This document shows positions 765 through 30,628 of a stretch of DNA of 36,982 nucleotides, in pieces. The notes beneath the pieces are model-generated. The model was not told the DNA's origin, searched no databases, and saw only the letters and a list, made by a program, of their open reading frames with translations. The translations under genes and the position numbers were made by a program. Origin of the DNA: Bacteriovoracaceae bacterium (lineage in GTDB: Bacteria; Bdellovibrionota; Bacteriovoracia; Bacteriovoracales; Bacteriovoracaceae); the NCBI GenBank assembly GCA_018649885.1, contig JABIHA010000112.1, positions 62,001 to 98,982 of the forward strand. Reading direction: 5' to 3'. How positions within the stretch are numbered: position 1 is the first letter of the stretch; each line of letters opens with the position of its first letter.

Positions 765-807
765 TGCTTCGCCATCATCGGGAAAAACTTAATGGAGGGA
801 GTACTAG
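761..807. repeat. CTAG-bounded palindromic element, copy 1 (shorter, degenerate)
   Basis: CTAGTGCTTCG...AAACTTAATGGAGGGAGTACTAG shares both ends with the reverse complement of 30089-30155. Confidence 0.7.
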
Positions 808-808
808 A

Positions 809-12154: not shown

Positions 12155-13546
12155 ATGGATACTACTGGCATTGAAAATACTTTGAACGATAAAGGTGAGT
12201 TGCGCACTATATTTTTCACCTCTCTAGGTTGCTCAAAAAACCTGGTCGATTCGCAAGTGATGCTAGGGCATCTGGGCCTTGGAGGATTCAAGGTAACACC
12301 AGAACCAAAAGATGCTGAAGTTATTATCATTAATACCTGCTCCTTTGTAGAAGCAGCAAAAGCAGAGTCCATCGAAACCGTTTTAGAACTCGCTGATTAC
12401 AAAGACGATGAGAATGGGCAGTGTAAGGCCCTAGTTGTTTCGGGATGCATGGCCCAACGCTATTGTGTCGAGCTTGAAAAGGAAATGCCTGAGGTAGATC
12501 TATTTATTGGAACTGGAGAATATCAAAAGATTGTTCCCCTATTAACGGCCCTTGAAGATGGCAAATTAGAAAAAAAATCATTTGTAGAAATACCAAAATA
12601 TATTCATACGGAATTTGATCCAAGAGTAAATACTTCACCTTTTTATATGGCATGGCTTAAAGTTTCTGAAGGTTGTAATCGAAATTGTACATTTTGTATT
12701 ATTCCAACTCTTAGAGGAAAGCTGAGATCAAGAACTGTTGAATCATTAAAAACAGAAGCAGCTCACTTGGTGGCCTCTGGGGTTAAAGAGCTTAATGTTA
12801 TTAGCCAAGATTTATCTGATTACGGAAGTGATTTTTCTGGAGACAGACAAATTCAAAAATTACTTCTAGGTCTTGATAGTGTTGAAGGTGCATCATGGGT
12901 AAGGCTATTTTATTTTTATCCTGATGAAATTTCAGATGAAATAATTCAAATTATTAAAGATTCCGAAAAGATTGTAAATTATCTCGATATGCCAGTTCAG
13001 CATTTTTCCGATTACATTTTAAAAAGGATGAATCGAAATATAACAGGAGCAGAGGTTGAGGAAAAAATAGGCAAACTTCGACGTAGTATTCCCGATATCG
13101 TCATTAGAACTTCGATTATTGTAGGTTTTCCTGGAGAGAGCGAGAGCGATTTTCAAAAGCTTTTAGACGGTGTGAAAAAAGCAAAGTTTGATCACCTGGG
13201 AGTGTTTAAGTATTCTGATGAAGAGGGCACTGCCGCTTTTAGACTTAAAGATAAAGTTGATAGTGAGACTATTGATGAAAGATTTGAAATTCTCTATGAA
13301 ACTCAAAAAGAAATTGTAAAAGAAAACAACCAAAAATACCTGGGAAGGGTACTCGATGTACTGGTTGAAGGAGTCCATGAGGAAACCGATCTTCTATTAC
13401 AAGGTAGGCATTCTGGTCAAGGCCCAGACATTGATGGAAAAGTGATCATTAATGATGGTCTTGCAAAGCCGGGTGAAATAGTTAAAGTGGAAATCACTGA
13501 TGTCCTTGACTATGACTTGGTTGGAAAAATTATTCCAAATCCTTAA
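12155..13546 (+). CDS. rimO: Ribosomal protein S12 methylthiotransferase RimO
   Basis: 'LGCSKNLVDS', 'INTCSF', radical-SAM 'CNRNCTFC', C-terminal TRAM domain 'PDIDG'. Confidence 0.93.
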   Translation: MDTTGIENTLNDKGELRTIFFTSLGCSKNLVDSQVMLGHLGLGGFKVTPEPKDAEVIIINTCSFVEAAKAESIETVLELADYKDDENGQCKALVVSGCMAQRYCVELEKEMPEVDLFIGTGEYQKIVPLLTALEDGKLEKKSFVEIPKYIHTEFDPRVNTSPFYMAWLKVSEGCNRNCTFCIIPTLRGKLRSRTVESLKTEAAHLVASGVKELNVISQDLSDYGSDFSGDRQIQKLLLGLDSVEGASWVRLFYFYPDEISDEIIQIIKDSEKIVNYLDMPVQHFSDYILKRMNRNITGAEVEEKIGKLRRSIPDIVIRTSIIVGFPGESESDFQKLLDGVKKAKFDHLGVFKYSDEEGTAAFRLKDKVDSETIDERFEILYETQKEIVKENNQKYLGRVLDVLVEGVHEETDLLLQGRHSGQGPDIDGKVIINDGLAKPGEIVKVEITDVLDYDLVGKIIPNP

Positions 13547-13678
13547 TACCAATTACGTTAAATAATGTCGGTTTTTGAACGCCATTTTTGCAAACCTTGC
13601 ACTTTTGCTTAATCACAAAAGCGCAATCTTTACAAAACTGACATCCAAAAATCCCGATATTGTTTGACGTAATTGGTA
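13547..13678. mobile_element. TA-flanked palindromic MITE/ERIC-like element (132 bp)
   Basis: TACCAATTACGTTAAATAATGTCGG...CCGATATTGTTTGACGTAATTGGTA; imperfect inverted repeat of about 60 bp per arm. Confidence 0.6.
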
Positions 13679-13751
13679 TAAGTAGATTTATTGCACGATA
13701 GTAAGTATACTTTTCAATATAATTTCAACCTGACGCTATGGATAGAAACAG

Positions 13752-14555: not shown

Positions 14556-14606
14556 AACTATACTGAAATCCAAACTGGGATCAGTATACCTCTAAATTTG
14601 AGAGTT

Positions 14607-25164: not shown

Positions 25165-27096
25165 TTAAATAAGGATAATTATCTCATCGTCGGGAGTGAA
25201 TTCGACCTCTTCCTTTCGCTCCGGGTTGAGAAAGAATTCGCGCGTGTTGCCGCCATTTTTCATGACTTTAATATAGCCAAGAAAAACATAATCAGATTGA
25301 TTCACAATTTGTTGGGCCAAGGCCACAGTCATTTTTTTATTTACTAGTCCGAACAGATTACAGTTTACGATAGAGATTTCATGTTCTGTAATGTCGAGCA
25401 GGTCTTCGTAGACTTCATTGATCTCTGGTGTCAGTGCTGCCTGAGAGAGCATGTGAGAGAGAATTAATGGAGGAATGAGAATCTCATCTTTGGAGTGAGG
25501 AAAGAGCTTTTCATTATCTTGATCCATAATTTCAGCAAGTATATCTGGCGGATGGGCCACACCTCGAAGGACATCTTTTAAAAGAAGATGGCCTAGAATA
25601 ATTCTTGCATCTGACTCAAGGTCTGAATCAAGCCAGTCATTACTAAGCATAATAATATCTGTAAAAGTTTCTGGTTTTACTGATGTTAGTTTTTTCACAG
25701 CAGTGTAGTCACCATCTATAAGTTGAAGATTGATTTTTTCATAATTAATTTCAAATTTTGATAATCTTCTTTTTCTATCATTGATATCTACCCGAGCTAA
25801 ATTAACAATGTCATAGGTCTCATTTTTATAATTACTAAAAAACTGAATGAGGTTAGCAGCGTGGTGATTCCAACCCAGAATGAGAATTTTTCTTTTTACA
25901 GCAGGAAGTTCAATGGGGGTATCTCTTATAGGTCTCAGATCAACGGTTTGTTCATTTACTTCAGGTTTAATATCATCCATGCCTCTTGCAATAAGCACAA
26001 TACTGTCATCATCCTCCAAAATGGTGTCAATGGGGGGATTGAGAAATGGAACATATTGGCTTCCAAGCTTTCGAAGGATTCCAATGACGATGGCCTTTGG
26101 AAAAGCATTTTGAATTTCGTAAAAATTTCTTCCCTCAAATTGAGGGTATTCCCTAACGTAAATTCCATTTCCAAAGTTTTGTCTTAGGAGTTCTGAATAA
26201 ATAAAGGCAAGACCTGTGTATCTTGCATTTTGGGCTATGATTCTGCTGATAAGGGAGTCACTTGAGATAATCTCAATATTTTTCCCATAAATACCCTGAG
26301 CAATAGAAGCTTTTTTCTTACTGAGCATTTCAACAACCATTGGAGGAATATCACCTTCATAGCCTTCGAGCTTTCCATAGTTGGCAATGGTCAGAAGTGT
26401 TTTAACATTCTTTGCATCGAGATCAGAGTTCGAGATATTTGTTCCAGGCATAATGACAACTGCTGCTTCTAAAAAATTCACTCTTCTCAAATCATCTAAA
26501 TCGAGACTATCCCCGCCCCTAATAATAATATCTCGACTATTCCACTTGCTACCAAGATCTTCTTTGAATTTGTAATAAACATCGCTATCAAGATCTTTAC
26601 AGAGAATAACAATTTTAATTTTCTTGAGATCAAGTCGGTTGAGAAATTTTTGGCGGTTTATATCTGATGTGAGTATTCCTTCAACAAGTGAGACGGTTCT
26701 ATTGGTTAATCCTAGAATTAAAATATGATCTTCAATGTAAAGAGGAGTCACTCCACTTTCAAGTTCTCGAAGCGCCTTGTACATCCACTGAGTCATTAGA
26801 GCGATCAGGGCACCCAGAAACAAAACATAGCTTAAAACTGAGAGAATTGTGGAAACCAATCTGAGAAGCGTTCCTTTGTCTTGGCCGAGATATCCTGGAT
26901 CTGTGAGCCTTAAAAAGGCCCACCACATTGCGGAGCTAAAACTTGTAAACTCTGAGCTAGCTGTAAAAACCACCAGGCCTGCGATAAATGAAACACCTGC
27001 GATAATGAGAGCAAAAATAAAGACCTGATAGGGAAGTCCTGAAAGGATGAACCTTTCGACCAAGTATTTGAGTCTGTTAAAAAATTGCTTTAGCAT
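25165..27096 (-). CDS. CASTOR/POLLUX-related ion channel with two RCK-like domains
   Basis: TM-pore-TM segment 'MWWAFLRLTDPGYLG'; RCK starts 'DHILILG' and 'KILILGWN'. Confidence 0.8.
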   Translation of the reverse strand: MLKQFFNRLKYLVERFILSGLPYQVFIFALIIAGVSFIAGLVVFTASSEFTSFSSAMWWAFLRLTDPGYLGQDKGTLLRLVSTILSVLSYVLFLGALIALMTQWMYKALRELESGVTPLYIEDHILILGLTNRTVSLVEGILTSDINRQKFLNRLDLKKIKIVILCKDLDSDVYYKFKEDLGSKWNSRDIIIRGGDSLDLDDLRRVNFLEAAVVIMPGTNISNSDLDAKNVKTLLTIANYGKLEGYEGDIPPMVVEMLSKKKASIAQGIYGKNIEIISSDSLISRIIAQNARYTGLAFIYSELLRQNFGNGIYVREYPQFEGRNFYEIQNAFPKAIVIGILRKLGSQYVPFLNPPIDTILEDDDSIVLIARGMDDIKPEVNEQTVDLRPIRDTPIELPAVKRKILILGWNHHAANLIQFFSNYKNETYDIVNLARVDINDRKRRLSKFEINYEKINLQLIDGDYTAVKKLTSVKPETFTDIIMLSNDWLDSDLESDARIILGHLLLKDVLRGVAHPPDILAEIMDQDNEKLFPHSKDEILIPPLILSHMLSQAALTPEINEVYEDLLDITEHEISIVNCNLFGLVNKKMTVALAQQIVNQSDYVFLGYIKVMKNGGNTREFFLNPERKEEVEFTPDDEIIILI

Positions 27097-27233: not shown

Positions 27234-27241
27234 AGTTGGTT

Positions 27242-27408
27242 ATGCTCGCGTGATGAAGGTTTTCAAGTAAAGATTTGATTCAATTTGGCGGTAGATTCGC
27301 ATTCAAAACTCCTGAAGGCTTGCCTTTAGGTAAGTTGAGGGATTTTGAATGCGAAGATGCCGTCAAATTGGATCAAAGATTACTTGAAAACCTTCATCAT
27401 GCGAGTAT
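27242..27408 (+). ncRNA. Putative structured RNA or valS 5' leader: 167-nt rod hairpin
   Basis: Helices of 29, 20 and 13 bp plus an 8-bp apical stem; six G-U pairs, all on the + strand; two tandem G-A internal loops; G(CUUG)C loop. Confidence 0.6.
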
Positions 27409-27440
27409 CGTTTCCCTTTATTTATGGCAAAGAGATATCT

Positions 27441-30080
27441 ATGACAAAACGCGAGCTTCCAAAGAAGTACAATCACCTTGAATTAGAGAAGAAATGGGCA
27501 CAAAACTGGAAAGAAACCGATGTTTATGCTTATAACCCAGATGTTGCTAGAGAAAATACCTTCGTAGTTGATACCCCTCCTCCTACAGTTTCAGGTTCAC
27601 TCCATATGGGTCATGTATTTAGCTATACTCAAACAGATTGTATCGTTCGATATCAAAGAATGAAGGGCAAGAATATTTTTTATCCCATGGGCTGGGATGA
27701 TAATGGATTGCCCACTGAAAGAAGAGTGCAAAATCTTTGGGGTGTAAAATGTGATCCCACAGTTGCCTACGATTCATCTTGGACCGGAGAGAGAAAAGAA
27801 AAGGTTGTAAAACCAAGAGACCAACAGCCAATAGGTCGAAAAAACTTCATTGAGTTGTGCCAAAAACAAACCAAGGAAGATGAAATAAAATATGAAAACC
27901 TTTGGAGAAATCTAGGGCTTTCAATTGATTGGAATCAGCAGTATGAAACAATTAATAGTCATTCACAGAAGATGTCTCAATTTTCTTTTTTAGACTTAGT
28001 ATCAAAGAACAAGGTTTACTCTACAGAAGCTCCTACTATGTGGGATGTGACATATCAAACTGCAGTTGCTCAAGCTGAAGTTGAAGACCGCGCGCGAACA
28101 GGTCATTTTTACGATATAAGATTTGGTGTTGAAGATGGCAGTGAGTTTCTCATTTCTACAACAAGGCCAGAGCTACTAGCTGCGTGTATCGCTGTTGTTG
28201 CACACCCTGATGATGAAAGGTATCAAAAGTTTTTTGGCAAAAAGGCCATCACTCCCTTATTTAATGTAGAGGTTCCAATACTTGCGGCTGAACACGCTGA
28301 CCCTGAAAAGGGCACAGGTATATTAATGGTGTGTACCTTTGGTGATGTTCACGATGTGGAATGGTGGAAGCAAAGTGATCTTCCATTAAAGCAGGTACTT
28401 GGTCTTGATGGAAAAATGCTTCCGGTAACTTTTGGCGAAGGTGTTTTTGAGAGTAAGAATTCAAGTGCTGCCAATGCGGCTTATTCTAAAATCGATGGAC
28501 TCTTTATTAATAAGGCCAAATCGACAATGGTAGAAATGCTTTCAGAGGATGGCTCATGTGTCCTAGGAAAAGGTGCGGCCCTCGTAGGAGAGCCAAGGCC
28601 CACACAGCAAGCTGTTAAATATTACGAAAAAGGTGACCGTCCTCTTGAGTTTGTACCCACAAGGCAATGGTTTATAAAAATTCTTGATCATAGAGAAGAG
28701 CTCCTAGCACAAGGTGCGAAAGTTAACTGGACTCCAGCTCATATGAAATCTAAATTTGATCAATGGGTTAAAGGAATTAATCAAGATTGGTGTATATCAC
28801 GTCAGAGATATTTTGGAGTTCCCTTTCCCGTTTGGTACGGCGTAGATGAAAATGGAATGCCCATTTATGACAAGCCCCTTTTTGCAGATATTTCAGATCT
28901 TCCCGTCGATCCGATGCAAGAGACTCCAAAAGGATTTGAAGAGGCCTCGAGAAATCAGCCTGGTGGATTTACCGGAGATCCCAATGTAATGGATACATGG
29001 GCCACTTCATCAGTGACACCACAAATTTCAAGTCACTGGGGAATTGATGAAGCTAGACATAAGAAGCTCTTTCCTGCCGATCTTAGACCTCAGGCCCACG
29101 AAATAATTAGGACCTGGGCATTTTACACGATTGCAAAAAGTTATTTTCATGAAGGAAGTGTGCCTTGGTACAATGCAGGGATAAGTGGTTGGGTTGTGAC
29201 ACCTGATAGAAGCAAGCTCAGTAAGTCCAAAGGAAATAGTAAGGGGAGCCCAGAAGATTTACTGGTAGACTTCTCAGCCGATGCTCTTAGGTACTGGGCC
29301 ACAAAGGCAAAGCTTGGAGTAGACACTATTTATGATGAAGGTGTCTTTAAAGTTGGGAAGAGGCTTTGTACTAAATTATTCAATGTTTCGAAATTTGTGA
29401 TGATGCAACTGGAAGATGAAGACACTCCTGAATATTCGCATTCAGATATATCCAATATGCTTGATCTGGCAATGATCAAAGAGTTAAAGGAATTAGTTGA
29501 TCGTTCAAATAAAAATTTCGAGCAATTTGATTTCGCAGCCGTTTTACTTGAAACAGAATCTCTTTTTTGGAATTTTTGTGATCACTATGTAGAGCTTGTG
29601 AAAAATAGATCATATAAACAGAAAAATACTCAGGGTGGTAAGTCAGCTCTTGCAACTCTTGATATTTGTTTAGGAACATTTCTAAGGCTCTTTGCTCCAT
29701 TTATTTCCTTTGTAACAGAGGAAGTTTGGAGTTGGCGTCAGGATGAAAAAGATTCAACTATTCATAAGGCCAGTTTTCCCAATGCTTCAGAGTTTAAGGA
29801 GATTGACTTAGGACCAGTCAGTGATGAACTGGTAATTGCTAAGGAAGTGCTCGGAGGAATACGAGGCGAAAAAACGAAGGCCCAAAAATCGCTGAAATGG
29901 CCTGTTAAAGCTGTTAAAGTCAAAGGGGAAGCACAGAAAATCGAAGTACTTAAAAAAGTATTAGAAGATTTAACTGCTGCAGGTAATGTAAGTGAGAATG
30001 GATTTAGCTTTGTATCTGAAAAGATTGAAGGTGAGAGCAATTTTGAGTTAGATATAACTTTGTCAGAAAGTGACTCTTAA
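27441..30080 (+). CDS. valS: Valine--tRNA ligase, type 2 (archaeal-like, no C-terminal coiled coil)
   Basis: 'DTPPPTVSGSLHMGH', 'GWDDNGLPTE', 'DWCISRQR', 'MDTWATS', 'KLSKS'. Start set at ATG 27441. Confidence 0.95.
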   Translation: MTKRELPKKYNHLELEKKWAQNWKETDVYAYNPDVARENTFVVDTPPPTVSGSLHMGHVFSYTQTDCIVRYQRMKGKNIFYPMGWDDNGLPTERRVQNLWGVKCDPTVAYDSSWTGERKEKVVKPRDQQPIGRKNFIELCQKQTKEDEIKYENLWRNLGLSIDWNQQYETINSHSQKMSQFSFLDLVSKNKVYSTEAPTMWDVTYQTAVAQAEVEDRARTGHFYDIRFGVEDGSEFLISTTRPELLAACIAVVAHPDDERYQKFFGKKAITPLFNVEVPILAAEHADPEKGTGILMVCTFGDVHDVEWWKQSDLPLKQVLGLDGKMLPVTFGEGVFESKNSSAANAAYSKIDGLFINKAKSTMVEMLSEDGSCVLGKGAALVGEPRPTQQAVKYYEKGDRPLEFVPTRQWFIKILDHREELLAQGAKVNWTPAHMKSKFDQWVKGINQDWCISRQRYFGVPFPVWYGVDENGMPIYDKPLFADISDLPVDPMQETPKGFEEASRNQPGGFTGDPNVMDTWATSSVTPQISSHWGIDEARHKKLFPADLRPQAHEIIRTWAFYTIAKSYFHEGSVPWYNAGISGWVVTPDRSKLSKSKGNSKGSPEDLLVDFSADALRYWATKAKLGVDTIYDEGVFKVGKRLCTKLFNVSKFVMMQLEDEDTPEYSHSDISNMLDLAMIKELKELVDRSNKNFEQFDFAAVLLETESLFWNFCDHYVELVKNRSYKQKNTQGGKSALATLDICLGTFLRLFAPFISFVTEEVWSWRQDEKDSTIHKASFPNASEFKEIDLGPVSDELVIAKEVLGGIRGEKTKAQKSLKWPVKAVKVKGEAQKIEVLKKVLEDLTAAGNVSENGFSFVSEKIEGESNFELDITLSESDS

Positions 30081-30088
30081 GACTCACC

Positions 30089-30155
30089 CTAGCACTCCAT
30101 CCATTAAGTTTGCTTATGCTGCGCATACGGGTAAACTTAATGGACGGAGCACTAG
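30089..30155. repeat. CTAG-bounded palindromic element, copy 2 (67 bp); probably also a terminator between convergent genes
   Basis: CTAGCACTCCATCCATTAAGTTTG...TAAACTTAATGGACGGAGCACTAG; long inverted repeat homologous to 761-807. Confidence 0.7.
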
Positions 30156-30628
30156 AAATAATAATAACCAATCCATATTCTTAGGCTGTTGACTTTGGTT
30201 TTATTGAGGGCGATGGCCAGGCTTATGCCTGAATGTGAAAACCATTTTAAATCAACTCCTGCACCGACTTCATAGCCACCATTAAAATGGGATTTATCAT
30301 CAAATTGGCCAACACCTGCTATCCCTTCGGCGTAGAAAAATGGCTGAATATTTGATTTTTTTACATCAGACAAAAAATAAATATATGGGCCAAGAGAAAT
30401 ATCACCTTGCTTGTAAGTTGATCCAATAGAAAGTGTAAATCCAGTTACAAGTCTTAGCCACTTTGGCTCGGATGAAACAGCGAATTTTAAAAGATTGGCG
30501 GCACTTGTTCTGGACTCACCCTTCTCAGGATCTTCTAATCCATACTGCCAGTTGAACTGTCTTTTGGCAGCAGCAAAACCACTTATGGGTATAGAACAAA
30601 TGATAAATAATAACCAATATCGAGACAT
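30152..30628 (-). CDS. Small outer-membrane beta-barrel-like protein
   Basis: Signal peptide from ATG 30628; alternating beta-strand pattern; ends 'IGYYYF'. Confidence 0.65.
   Translation of the reverse strand: MSRYWLLFIICSIPISGFAAAKRQFNWQYGLEDPEKGESRTSAANLLKFAVSSEPKWLRLVTGFTLSIGSTYKQGDISLGPYIYFLSDVKKSNIQPFFYAEGIAGVGQFDDKSHFNGGYEVGAGVDLKWFSHSGISLAIALNKTKVNSLRIWIGYYYF

What the first reader, a model, noticed from the sequence alone, without database searches (positions are those of the whole stretch)
27242..27408. 167-nt rod-like RNA hairpin with tandem G-A loops directly upstream of valS
Seen: 27242-27270 pairs with 27380-27408 (29 bp), 27274-27293 with 27358-27377 (20 bp), and 27296-27308 with 27343-27355 (13 bp). 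These helices are separated only by AGA/GA and GA/GA loops, the geometry of tandem sheared G-A pairs. An asymmetric bulge leads to an 8-bp stem capped by G(CUUG)C. All six non-Watson-Crick stem pairs are G-U on the + strand and would be A-C on the - strand. A TTGACT promoter candidate precedes it, a U-rich stretch follows, and the valS ATG is 32 nt downstream. Known: G(CUUG)C and tandem G-A are stabilising RNA motifs; no T-box sequence is present. Inference: this looks selected as + strand RNA structure rather than a decaying DNA palindrome. It could be a T-box-independent valS regulator (e.g. an RNase III target or attenuator), a standalone ncRNA, or a domesticated MITE (its ends ATGCTCGC/GCGAGTAT are ERIC-like).
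Basis: partly seen in the sequence, partly recalled or inferred. Interest (0 to 1): 0.8.

Follow-up and report, generated by a model that had tools for sequence, protein, structure and literature searches.

The report
IS630 hairpin mini-transposon with shared core
The hairpin before valS is one of six scattered copies of a small non-coding element that is likely moved by an IS630 transposase, not a valine-sensing switch; its folded tip recurs inside elements with several unrelated kinds of ends, which suggests the fold itself is being preserved.

Summary
The 167-nt rod is real (-110.5 kcal/mol, z -18), but its predicted tip is a UUUA loop, not CUUG. It is not a valS regulator: the genome holds six full and seven partial copies beside unrelated genes, and 0 of 14 orthologous valS loci carry it. 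Its TA-flanked ~28-bp ends (TATACT-N13-TTTTCAAGT) have the layout of the terminal repeats of an IS630 element found in a relative, so it is most likely an IS630-mobilised MITE (RUP/Correia-like); no IS630 gene was found in this 92%-complete genome. Two things go beyond an ordinary MITE. One-sided stem changes give G-T rather than A-C on one strand 23:2 across three genera, and the central tandem G-A loop survives while stems turn over. The same apical core also sits in 165-190-nt rods with about eight end types across the phylum, one matching an IS5 end. No Rfam match. Transcription was not testable; whether the fold matters as RNA or single-stranded DNA is open. The right end may supply a promoter for valS (untested).

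The parts
27241..27242 (.). Left TA target duplication (inferred)
   Evidence: TA on both sides in 5 of 5 full copies of G153; left TA in 5 of 6 own copies; loose ends of contigs from other copies at 27240/27241
27243..27270 (+). Left terminal inverted repeat, IS630-type layout (TACT...TTTTCAAGT; here A>G at 27244)
   Evidence: Same spacing as both ends of the IS630 element in G045
27271..27313 (+). Left arm of the rod with the AGA and GA loops
27305..27346 (+). Conserved apical core: A-run/T-run stem, GAA/GA 3x2 loop, two G-U pairs, 8-bp stem, UUUA loop at 27325-27328
   Evidence: Shared with rods that have other ends
27339..27379 (+). Right arm of the rod with two GA loops
27380..27407 (+). 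Right terminal inverted repeat; holds an outward TTGAAA (27384-27389) 16 nt before TATCGT (27406-27411), a candidate valS promoter (untested)
27408..27409 (.). Right target duplication, decayed (TC for TA; inferred)
   Evidence: loose ends at 27408
27441..30080 (+). valS (alternative-type valine-tRNA ligase), the downstream neighbour, not part of the element
   Evidence: NF000540 alt_ValS 1124 bits, cut-off 900
25165..27096 (-). Divergent neighbour, ion-channel-like protein (Castor/Pollux domain), not part of the element
   Evidence: PF06241 E 9e-22

Best explanation
The feature is one copy of a dispersed, TA-flanked, non-coding hairpin element that is likely a non-autonomous transposon (type II MITE) moved in trans by an IS630-family transposase, and it likely landed in front of valS by chance. 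Shown: multicopy, sharp ends, TA flanks, end layout shared with a real IS630 element, absence at orthologous valS loci, one-strand bias of stem changes, and the same apical core behind other end types. Inferred: the transposase binds the ~28-bp ends and cuts and pastes into TA, as shown for ISY100; the interior is kept by selection on a fold of the purine-loop strand; folding lets one arm be copied onto the other, which would explain two-sided changes and how the core gains new matched ends. Any effect on valS would be secondary, most likely an outward promoter at the right end or an RNase III site in read-through RNA.
For: Six full copies (four at 88-91% identity, one at 73% over 133 nt) and seven partial or centre-deleted copies in the own genome, beside unrelated genes. 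5 full copies in G153 and 17 in G163, other genera of the same family. End motif TATACY-N13-WTTTCMAGT: 33, 50, 25, 25, 18, 17 matches in G000, G153, G005, G163, G045, G116 with 0 for the reversed control in each; 49 of 237 genomes have at least one match, many single and by chance. In G045 the motif is the right end of a 1106-bp TA-flanked element encoding an IS630 transposase (NF033545, 202 bits, cut-off 100), with a left end of like layout. Other interiors (105, 107, 125, 127 nt) use the same ends. 0 of 14 orthologous valS loci match. 20 of 74 pairs change on both sides in 6 copies, 0 of 500 shuffles as high. G-T:A-C 10:0, 6:0, 7:2. Copy C128 has its central GA/GA loop replaced by the exact complement of the other arm. 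ISY100 needs only ~30 bp of each end and inserts at TA (PMC2170065, passages).
Against: No IS630 gene was found in the own genome by Pfam or by two transposase queries (92% complete, 151 contigs). No empty valS site was seen: 4 of 17 listed runs were laid, none showed a joint, and no same-genus genome was among those searched. The end match to the G045 IS630 is in two boxes and their spacing; the 13 letters between differ. Right-hand TA is intact in only 3 of 6 own copies. Cut-and-paste needs no strand-specific fold, so the model does not by itself explain the G-T bias or the kept loops. Arm-to-arm copying rests on one clear case.
Confidence: 0.8

Rival explanations
1. The apical core is a functional RNA (or RNA-binding-protein site) in its own right, selected on the purine-loop strand, and transposon ends are only exchangeable vehicles for it.
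For: Core similarity of the window copy to rods with other ends exceeded all 1000 structure-preserving shuffles for G084, G154 and two G039 rods, 16 of 1000 for G265. A core-only model hit 8 of 151 phylum genomes including the own; the hits read had about eight end types. Core helix cells 93% paired, 16 two-sided cells against 5.7 in shuffles. G-T:A-C 23:2. The core also occurs in 4 viral-collection loci without these ends.
Against: No RNA data. Patchy, lineage-specific expansions and many centre-deleted copies that lack the core argue against a host-essential RNA. Rods with other ends were found with models built from these rods, so the shuffle test is biased upward; pairs with two-sided change in the core (4 of 10) did not exceed shuffles (207 of 500). 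Common descent plus end swapping could give a shared core without function.
Confidence: 0.35
2. The strand bias is mutational or a DNA effect: C>T and A>G damage on an exposed strand, or a single-stranded DNA hairpin in which G-T and G-A are tolerated, with no RNA role.
For: The 16 G-T-making changes in G000 and G153 are 10 C>T and 6 A>G, the products of deamination. DNA energy parameters also favour the same strand (window -59.9 against -50.0).
Against: G>A and T>C do occur on that strand where they turn a G-T into a Watson-Crick pair (7 states in the rods, polarity uncertain). The bias follows the element's strand: the window copy, sense to valS, has 4 private G-T and 0 A-C.
Confidence: 0.3
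3. The hairpin is a dedicated, T-box-independent regulator or attenuator of valS.
For: Position 32 nt before the valS start; stable strand is sense to valS; RNase III is encoded in the genome.
Against: Five other full copies beside unrelated genes; absent from 14 of 14 orthologous valS loci and from the valS of G153, which carries the family; no alternative fold, terminator or leader found; no Rfam match.
Confidence: 0.04
4. This particular copy has been domesticated as the valS promoter (outward TTGAAA plus TATCGT), like Correia-derived promoters.
For: Site at 27384-27411, start would fall about 23 nt before the ATG. The layout is built into every end of the family; 4 of 22 rod ends make a perfect TATAAT with their flank. 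The copy was unchanged in the two run contigs that span it.
Against: 4 of 22 is not above the genome background (p 0.13); spacer is 16 nt and the window's -10 matches 4 of 6; promoter-like sites are no more frequent than in shuffles.
Confidence: 0.25

Closest known systems
RUP (repeat unit of pneumococcus), attributed to IS630-Spn1
   Same: Small, intergenic, TA at the ends, terminal repeats like those of an IS630 element in the same group, long stem-loop (PMC2229807, PMC3049150; passages read).
   Different: 107 bp and about 108 copies against 165-bp and 6 copies here; no sequence comparison made; no shared core with other end types was reported in the passages read.
Correia / NEMIS elements of Neisseria
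   Same: TA duplication, 24-26-bp terminal repeats, outward promoters, RNase III cleavage of transcripts (PMC2229807, PMC3184786, PMC9330008, PMC10969869; passages).
   Different: Here the whole element is one rod; promoter activity and RNase III cleavage are untested; no sequence comparison made.
ERIC / IRU (127 bp)
   Same: The Salmonella copy printed in PMC2759123 begins tatactcg, ends gagtata and has ttcaagt near the end; E. coli copies fold as a rod with a GA/GA loop under the tip and a more stable strand (-65 against -50); orientation-dependent RNA effects are reported.
   Different: No significant similarity: model E 2.7 and 4.8, alignments at shuffle level; box spacing and length differ.
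YPAL / RU-2 (167-168 bp) and Rickettsia palindromic elements
   Same: Similar length and rod fold. I recall that RPE families have a similar tip behind different ends; this is recalled and was not tested.
   Different: YPAL lacks TA ends and has 3-26-bp duplications. The RPE primary paper was not held.
T-box riboswitch
   Same: Position before an aminoacyl-tRNA synthetase gene.
   Different: No Rfam hit, no T-box core motif, no terminator/antiterminator pair, not conserved at valS.

Membership tests
Bacterial MITE (type II) | Short (<500 bp), non-coding, multicopy, intergenic | tested here: met
   165-bp interior; 6 full copies, all between genes
Bacterial MITE (type II) | Terminal inverted repeats related to those of an autonomous IS | tested here: met
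   Two boxes and their 13-nt spacing shared with IS630 ends in G045
Bacterial MITE (type II) | Target-site duplication shown by filled versus empty sites | tested here: inconclusive
   TA on both sides in 5 of 5 G153 copies, 3 of 6 own copies intact on the right; no empty site found
IS630-mobilised MITE | Cognate IS630 transposase in the same genome | tested here: inconclusive
   Not found in G000 (92% complete); present in 3 of 5 motif-rich relatives searched
IS630-mobilised MITE | Mobilisation in trans by the transposase | not testable with these tools
   needs a binding or excision assay
ERIC / IRU | Sequence similarity to the 127-bp consensus | tested here: not met
   (two E. coli K-12 copies)
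T-box riboswitch | Rfam T-box model, T-box motif, terminator | tested here: not met
REP / REPIN (RAYT-mobilised) | GTAG or CGTC end tag and presence beside a RAYT gene | tested here: not met
   The three Y1-domain genes are flanked by other sequences, not this element; ends read TACT/AGTA
Rickettsia palindromic elements | Sequence similarity of the core | not tested
   no RPE locus fetched; paper not held
Standalone non-coding RNA | Discrete transcript | not testable with these tools
   no RNA run listed

The most novel reading that the evidence does not exclude
The real unit is a conserved, strand-specific structured core, in no Rfam family, that persists across a phylum by repeatedly acquiring the matched ends of unrelated insertion sequences (IS630, IS5 and others), probably through arm-to-arm copying in its own hairpin. 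Bacterial 'type II MITEs' would then not be hollowed-out transposons but an old folded module with a job of its own, as RNA or single-stranded DNA.
Probability: 0.4. Interest if true: 0.8.

Novelty: new variant of a known kind. Interest (0 to 1): 0.5.

Why it matters
As a valS regulator it falls. As a MITE it gives an unusually clean link between a hairpin repeat and its likely mobiliser, and it makes an old question testable: why bacterial MITEs keep long RNA-like folds that cut-and-paste transposition does not need. A core shared by elements with unrelated ends, with a 23:2 one-strand bias, points to selection on the fold and names the exact loops to mutate.

Tried and rejected
Rfam: nothing at gathering score in the window; nothing for 6 loci at E<=1; only weak off-family hits for 13 more loci. 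BLAST-type DNA searches missed the relatives: 0 of 236 family genomes at E<=1e-4, although patterns and covariance models later found them in G153 and G163. Metagenome pattern scan: 6 loci, 5 identical to the own genome, 1 without a rod. Viral scans: 0 for the end pattern, 1 unclear for a strict core pattern. Plasmid blastn with the window copy: no match. E. coli blastn with a 127-nt relative: no match. No RNA holder listed among 17 runs, which says nothing on expression; no joint skipping the element in 4 laid runs. RAYT-like genes as mobiliser: rejected. CUUG tetraloop: rejected. Enrichment of perfect -10 boxes: not significant. Orientation bias: none in the 105-nt family (5:5). ERIC membership: not met. 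Partner IS for the G265 and G039 end types: not found. Two papers were not held.

Full report
Observation. The rod folds as described for its three long helices and two purine loops (-110.5 kcal/mol, z -18.1; minus strand -78.4). valS (alternative type) starts at 27441; an ion-channel-like gene diverges from 27096. No Rfam family matches.

It is a dispersed repeat. The own genome (G000, 5.45 Mb, 92% complete) has six full copies and seven partial or centre-deleted ones. Neighbours are unrelated: ThiF, MAPEG, response regulators, a dicarboxylate symporter, a radical SAM enzyme. In one laid run depth over the element is about six times that of the flanks and contigs of other copies leave at 27240/27241 and 27408, marking sharp ends. 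Of 121 family genomes searched, 14 others have the orthologous valS; none of these 14 loci matches the element model (best other hit E 0.049, within or beyond the gene) or has the end motif. G153, which carries the family, has none at its valS. A valS-specific regulator is therefore unlikely.

The ends point to IS630. A two-ended pattern over 185,579 species genomes returned 4 loci, all from one genome titled 'Bdellovibrionales bacterium', which is G153, same family, other genus. It has 5 full 168-bp rods, all TA-flanked. A covariance model found 17 further 165-nt rods in G163 (151 genomes searched). The motif TATACY-N13-WTTTCMAGT is abundant in six of 237 family genomes (17-50 matches, control 0). 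In G045 it is the right end of a 1106-bp, TA-flanked element whose protein passes the IS630 cut-off: of 14 G045 loci read, 11 showed this right end, one a related end, and two were cut off in the print-out. The same ends enclose other interiors: about 21 copies of 105 nt in G000, 107 and 127 nt in G005, 125 nt in G116. IS630 member ISY100 moves by cut and paste into TA and needs about 30 bp of each end (PMC2170065, passages); RUP is attributed to IS630-Spn1 on the same kind of evidence (PMC2229807, passages). Against: no IS630 gene was found in G000 and no empty site was seen.

The fold is kept on one strand. Among six own copies 20 of 74 pairs change on both sides, most from one diverged copy. 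Counting distinct one-sided transitions at consensus Watson-Crick pairs, with pairs defined from either strand's fold, gave G-T:A-C of 10:0 (5 own copies; the diverged C54 left out), 6:0 (5 G153 copies) and 7:2 (16 of 17 G163 copies; one at a contig edge left out); 23:2, nominal p 2e-5. Copies are kin and polarity is taken from a consensus, so the p value overstates. The 105-nt family gave 17:7. The central AGAT/AGAT loop is kept in all three genera while the stems around it are rewritten, but is lost in C128 and altered in C54. In co-directional gene pairs the stable strand is antisense in 12 of 15 rods (nominal p 0.035; ORFs by a simple heuristic; one G153 copy was taken because a short ORF over the element misled); the 105-nt family shows 5:5. 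DNA energies favour the same strand, so RNA is not proven.

The core outlives the ends. The model also hit 178-181-nt rods with other ends in G084, G154, G039 and G265. Their tips align with the window's. The G154 end equals 21 letters at the end of a Vibrio plasmid IS5 (blastn E 2, but exactly at the element's end), and an IS5-like element in G084 starts with a similar end. A core-only model hit 8 of 151 phylum genomes; the 17 new hits read showed further end types, including three ~185-nt rods in G000 whose ends resemble a second IS630 in G153. In all about eight end types were seen; only three could be tied to an IS. Model E-values are rough (short calibration) and the hits were found with models built from these rods. 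Four viral-collection loci hold the core without such ends. Rfam has no match for these.

How it most likely works. Shown: a TA-flanked multicopy rod with IS630-type ends and a shared core. Inferred: an IS630 transposase supplied in trans, now lost or unassembled, moved it; the fold lets one arm template the other (C128 is the clear case), which keeps the ends matched and would let a new IS end spread to both arms; imperfect purine loops are kept by selection on one strand. For valS the likeliest effect is incidental: each end read outward gives TTGAAA, 16 nt, TATA plus flank, as for fusion promoters of IS and Correia elements (PMC9330008, PMC3184786, passages), but enrichment of good -10 boxes is not significant.

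Known kin and novelty. It works like RUP and Correia elements; it is not ERIC and not a T-box. Ten literature searches were run; none listed a description of these repeats in Bdellovibrionota or of one core behind several IS end types, but the library lacks most subscription journals and I read passages only, of PMC2759123, PMC3049150, PMC10969869, PMC2229807, PMC9330008, PMC2170065, PMC3184786 and PMC2267715; no supplements were read. I recall a similar tip in Rickettsia palindromic elements; untested. After reaching this reading I found that other agents in this scan noted like cases in other phyla; these are unchecked notes, not support, and they mean this window is one instance of a recurring pattern. 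Verdict: new variant of a known kind, interest 0.5.

Noticed in passing
window 13544-13681: A 134-nt hairpin with TA-flanked TACCAAT ends; it is a centre-shortened relative of three ~185-nt rods elsewhere in the genome (C72, C20, C83) that carry the same core and ends like a second IS630 in G153.
   Followed up: partly
window 14559-14588: A 30-nt TA-flanked mini-copy of the 105-nt MITE family's ends.
   Followed up: partly
G000, about 21 loci, e.g. C76:40044-40148: A 105-nt MITE family with the same IS630-type ends and a purine-rich interior; no Rfam match; a 107-nt relative in G005.
   Followed up: partly
window 776-808 and 30085-30160: Another short dispersed inverted repeat; the 30085-30160 stretch has 7 blastn places on 5 contigs.
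   Followed up: no
G000 C65:4340-4663, C118:4571-4909, C93:3660-3947: Three Y1/RAYT-like genes; two are flanked by short tandem direct repeats rather than hairpins.
   Followed up: no
L049 (G153 C31) and L063: An IS630-end mini-element is nested inside a rod copy with TTA on both sides; the full IS630 in L063 is also flanked by TTA, so this clade may duplicate three bases or have an uneven end.
   Followed up: partly
G153, 76 matches against 15 for the control: Many 45- and 57-nt TA-bounded hairpins, often joined in fixed order through a shared TATA, like BOX modules.
   Followed up: no
L133 (G005 C4), 127-nt element: ERIC-sized element with IS630-type ends and a 20-nt stretch like an E. coli ERIC copy (7 of 1000 shuffles, one of 20 comparisons, so weak; no blastn match).
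   Followed up: partly
window 27441-30080: The alternative-type ValS was found in only 15 of 121 family genomes at E<=1e-30; G153 has a 37%-identical ValS, suggesting two ValS types in the family.
   Followed up: no
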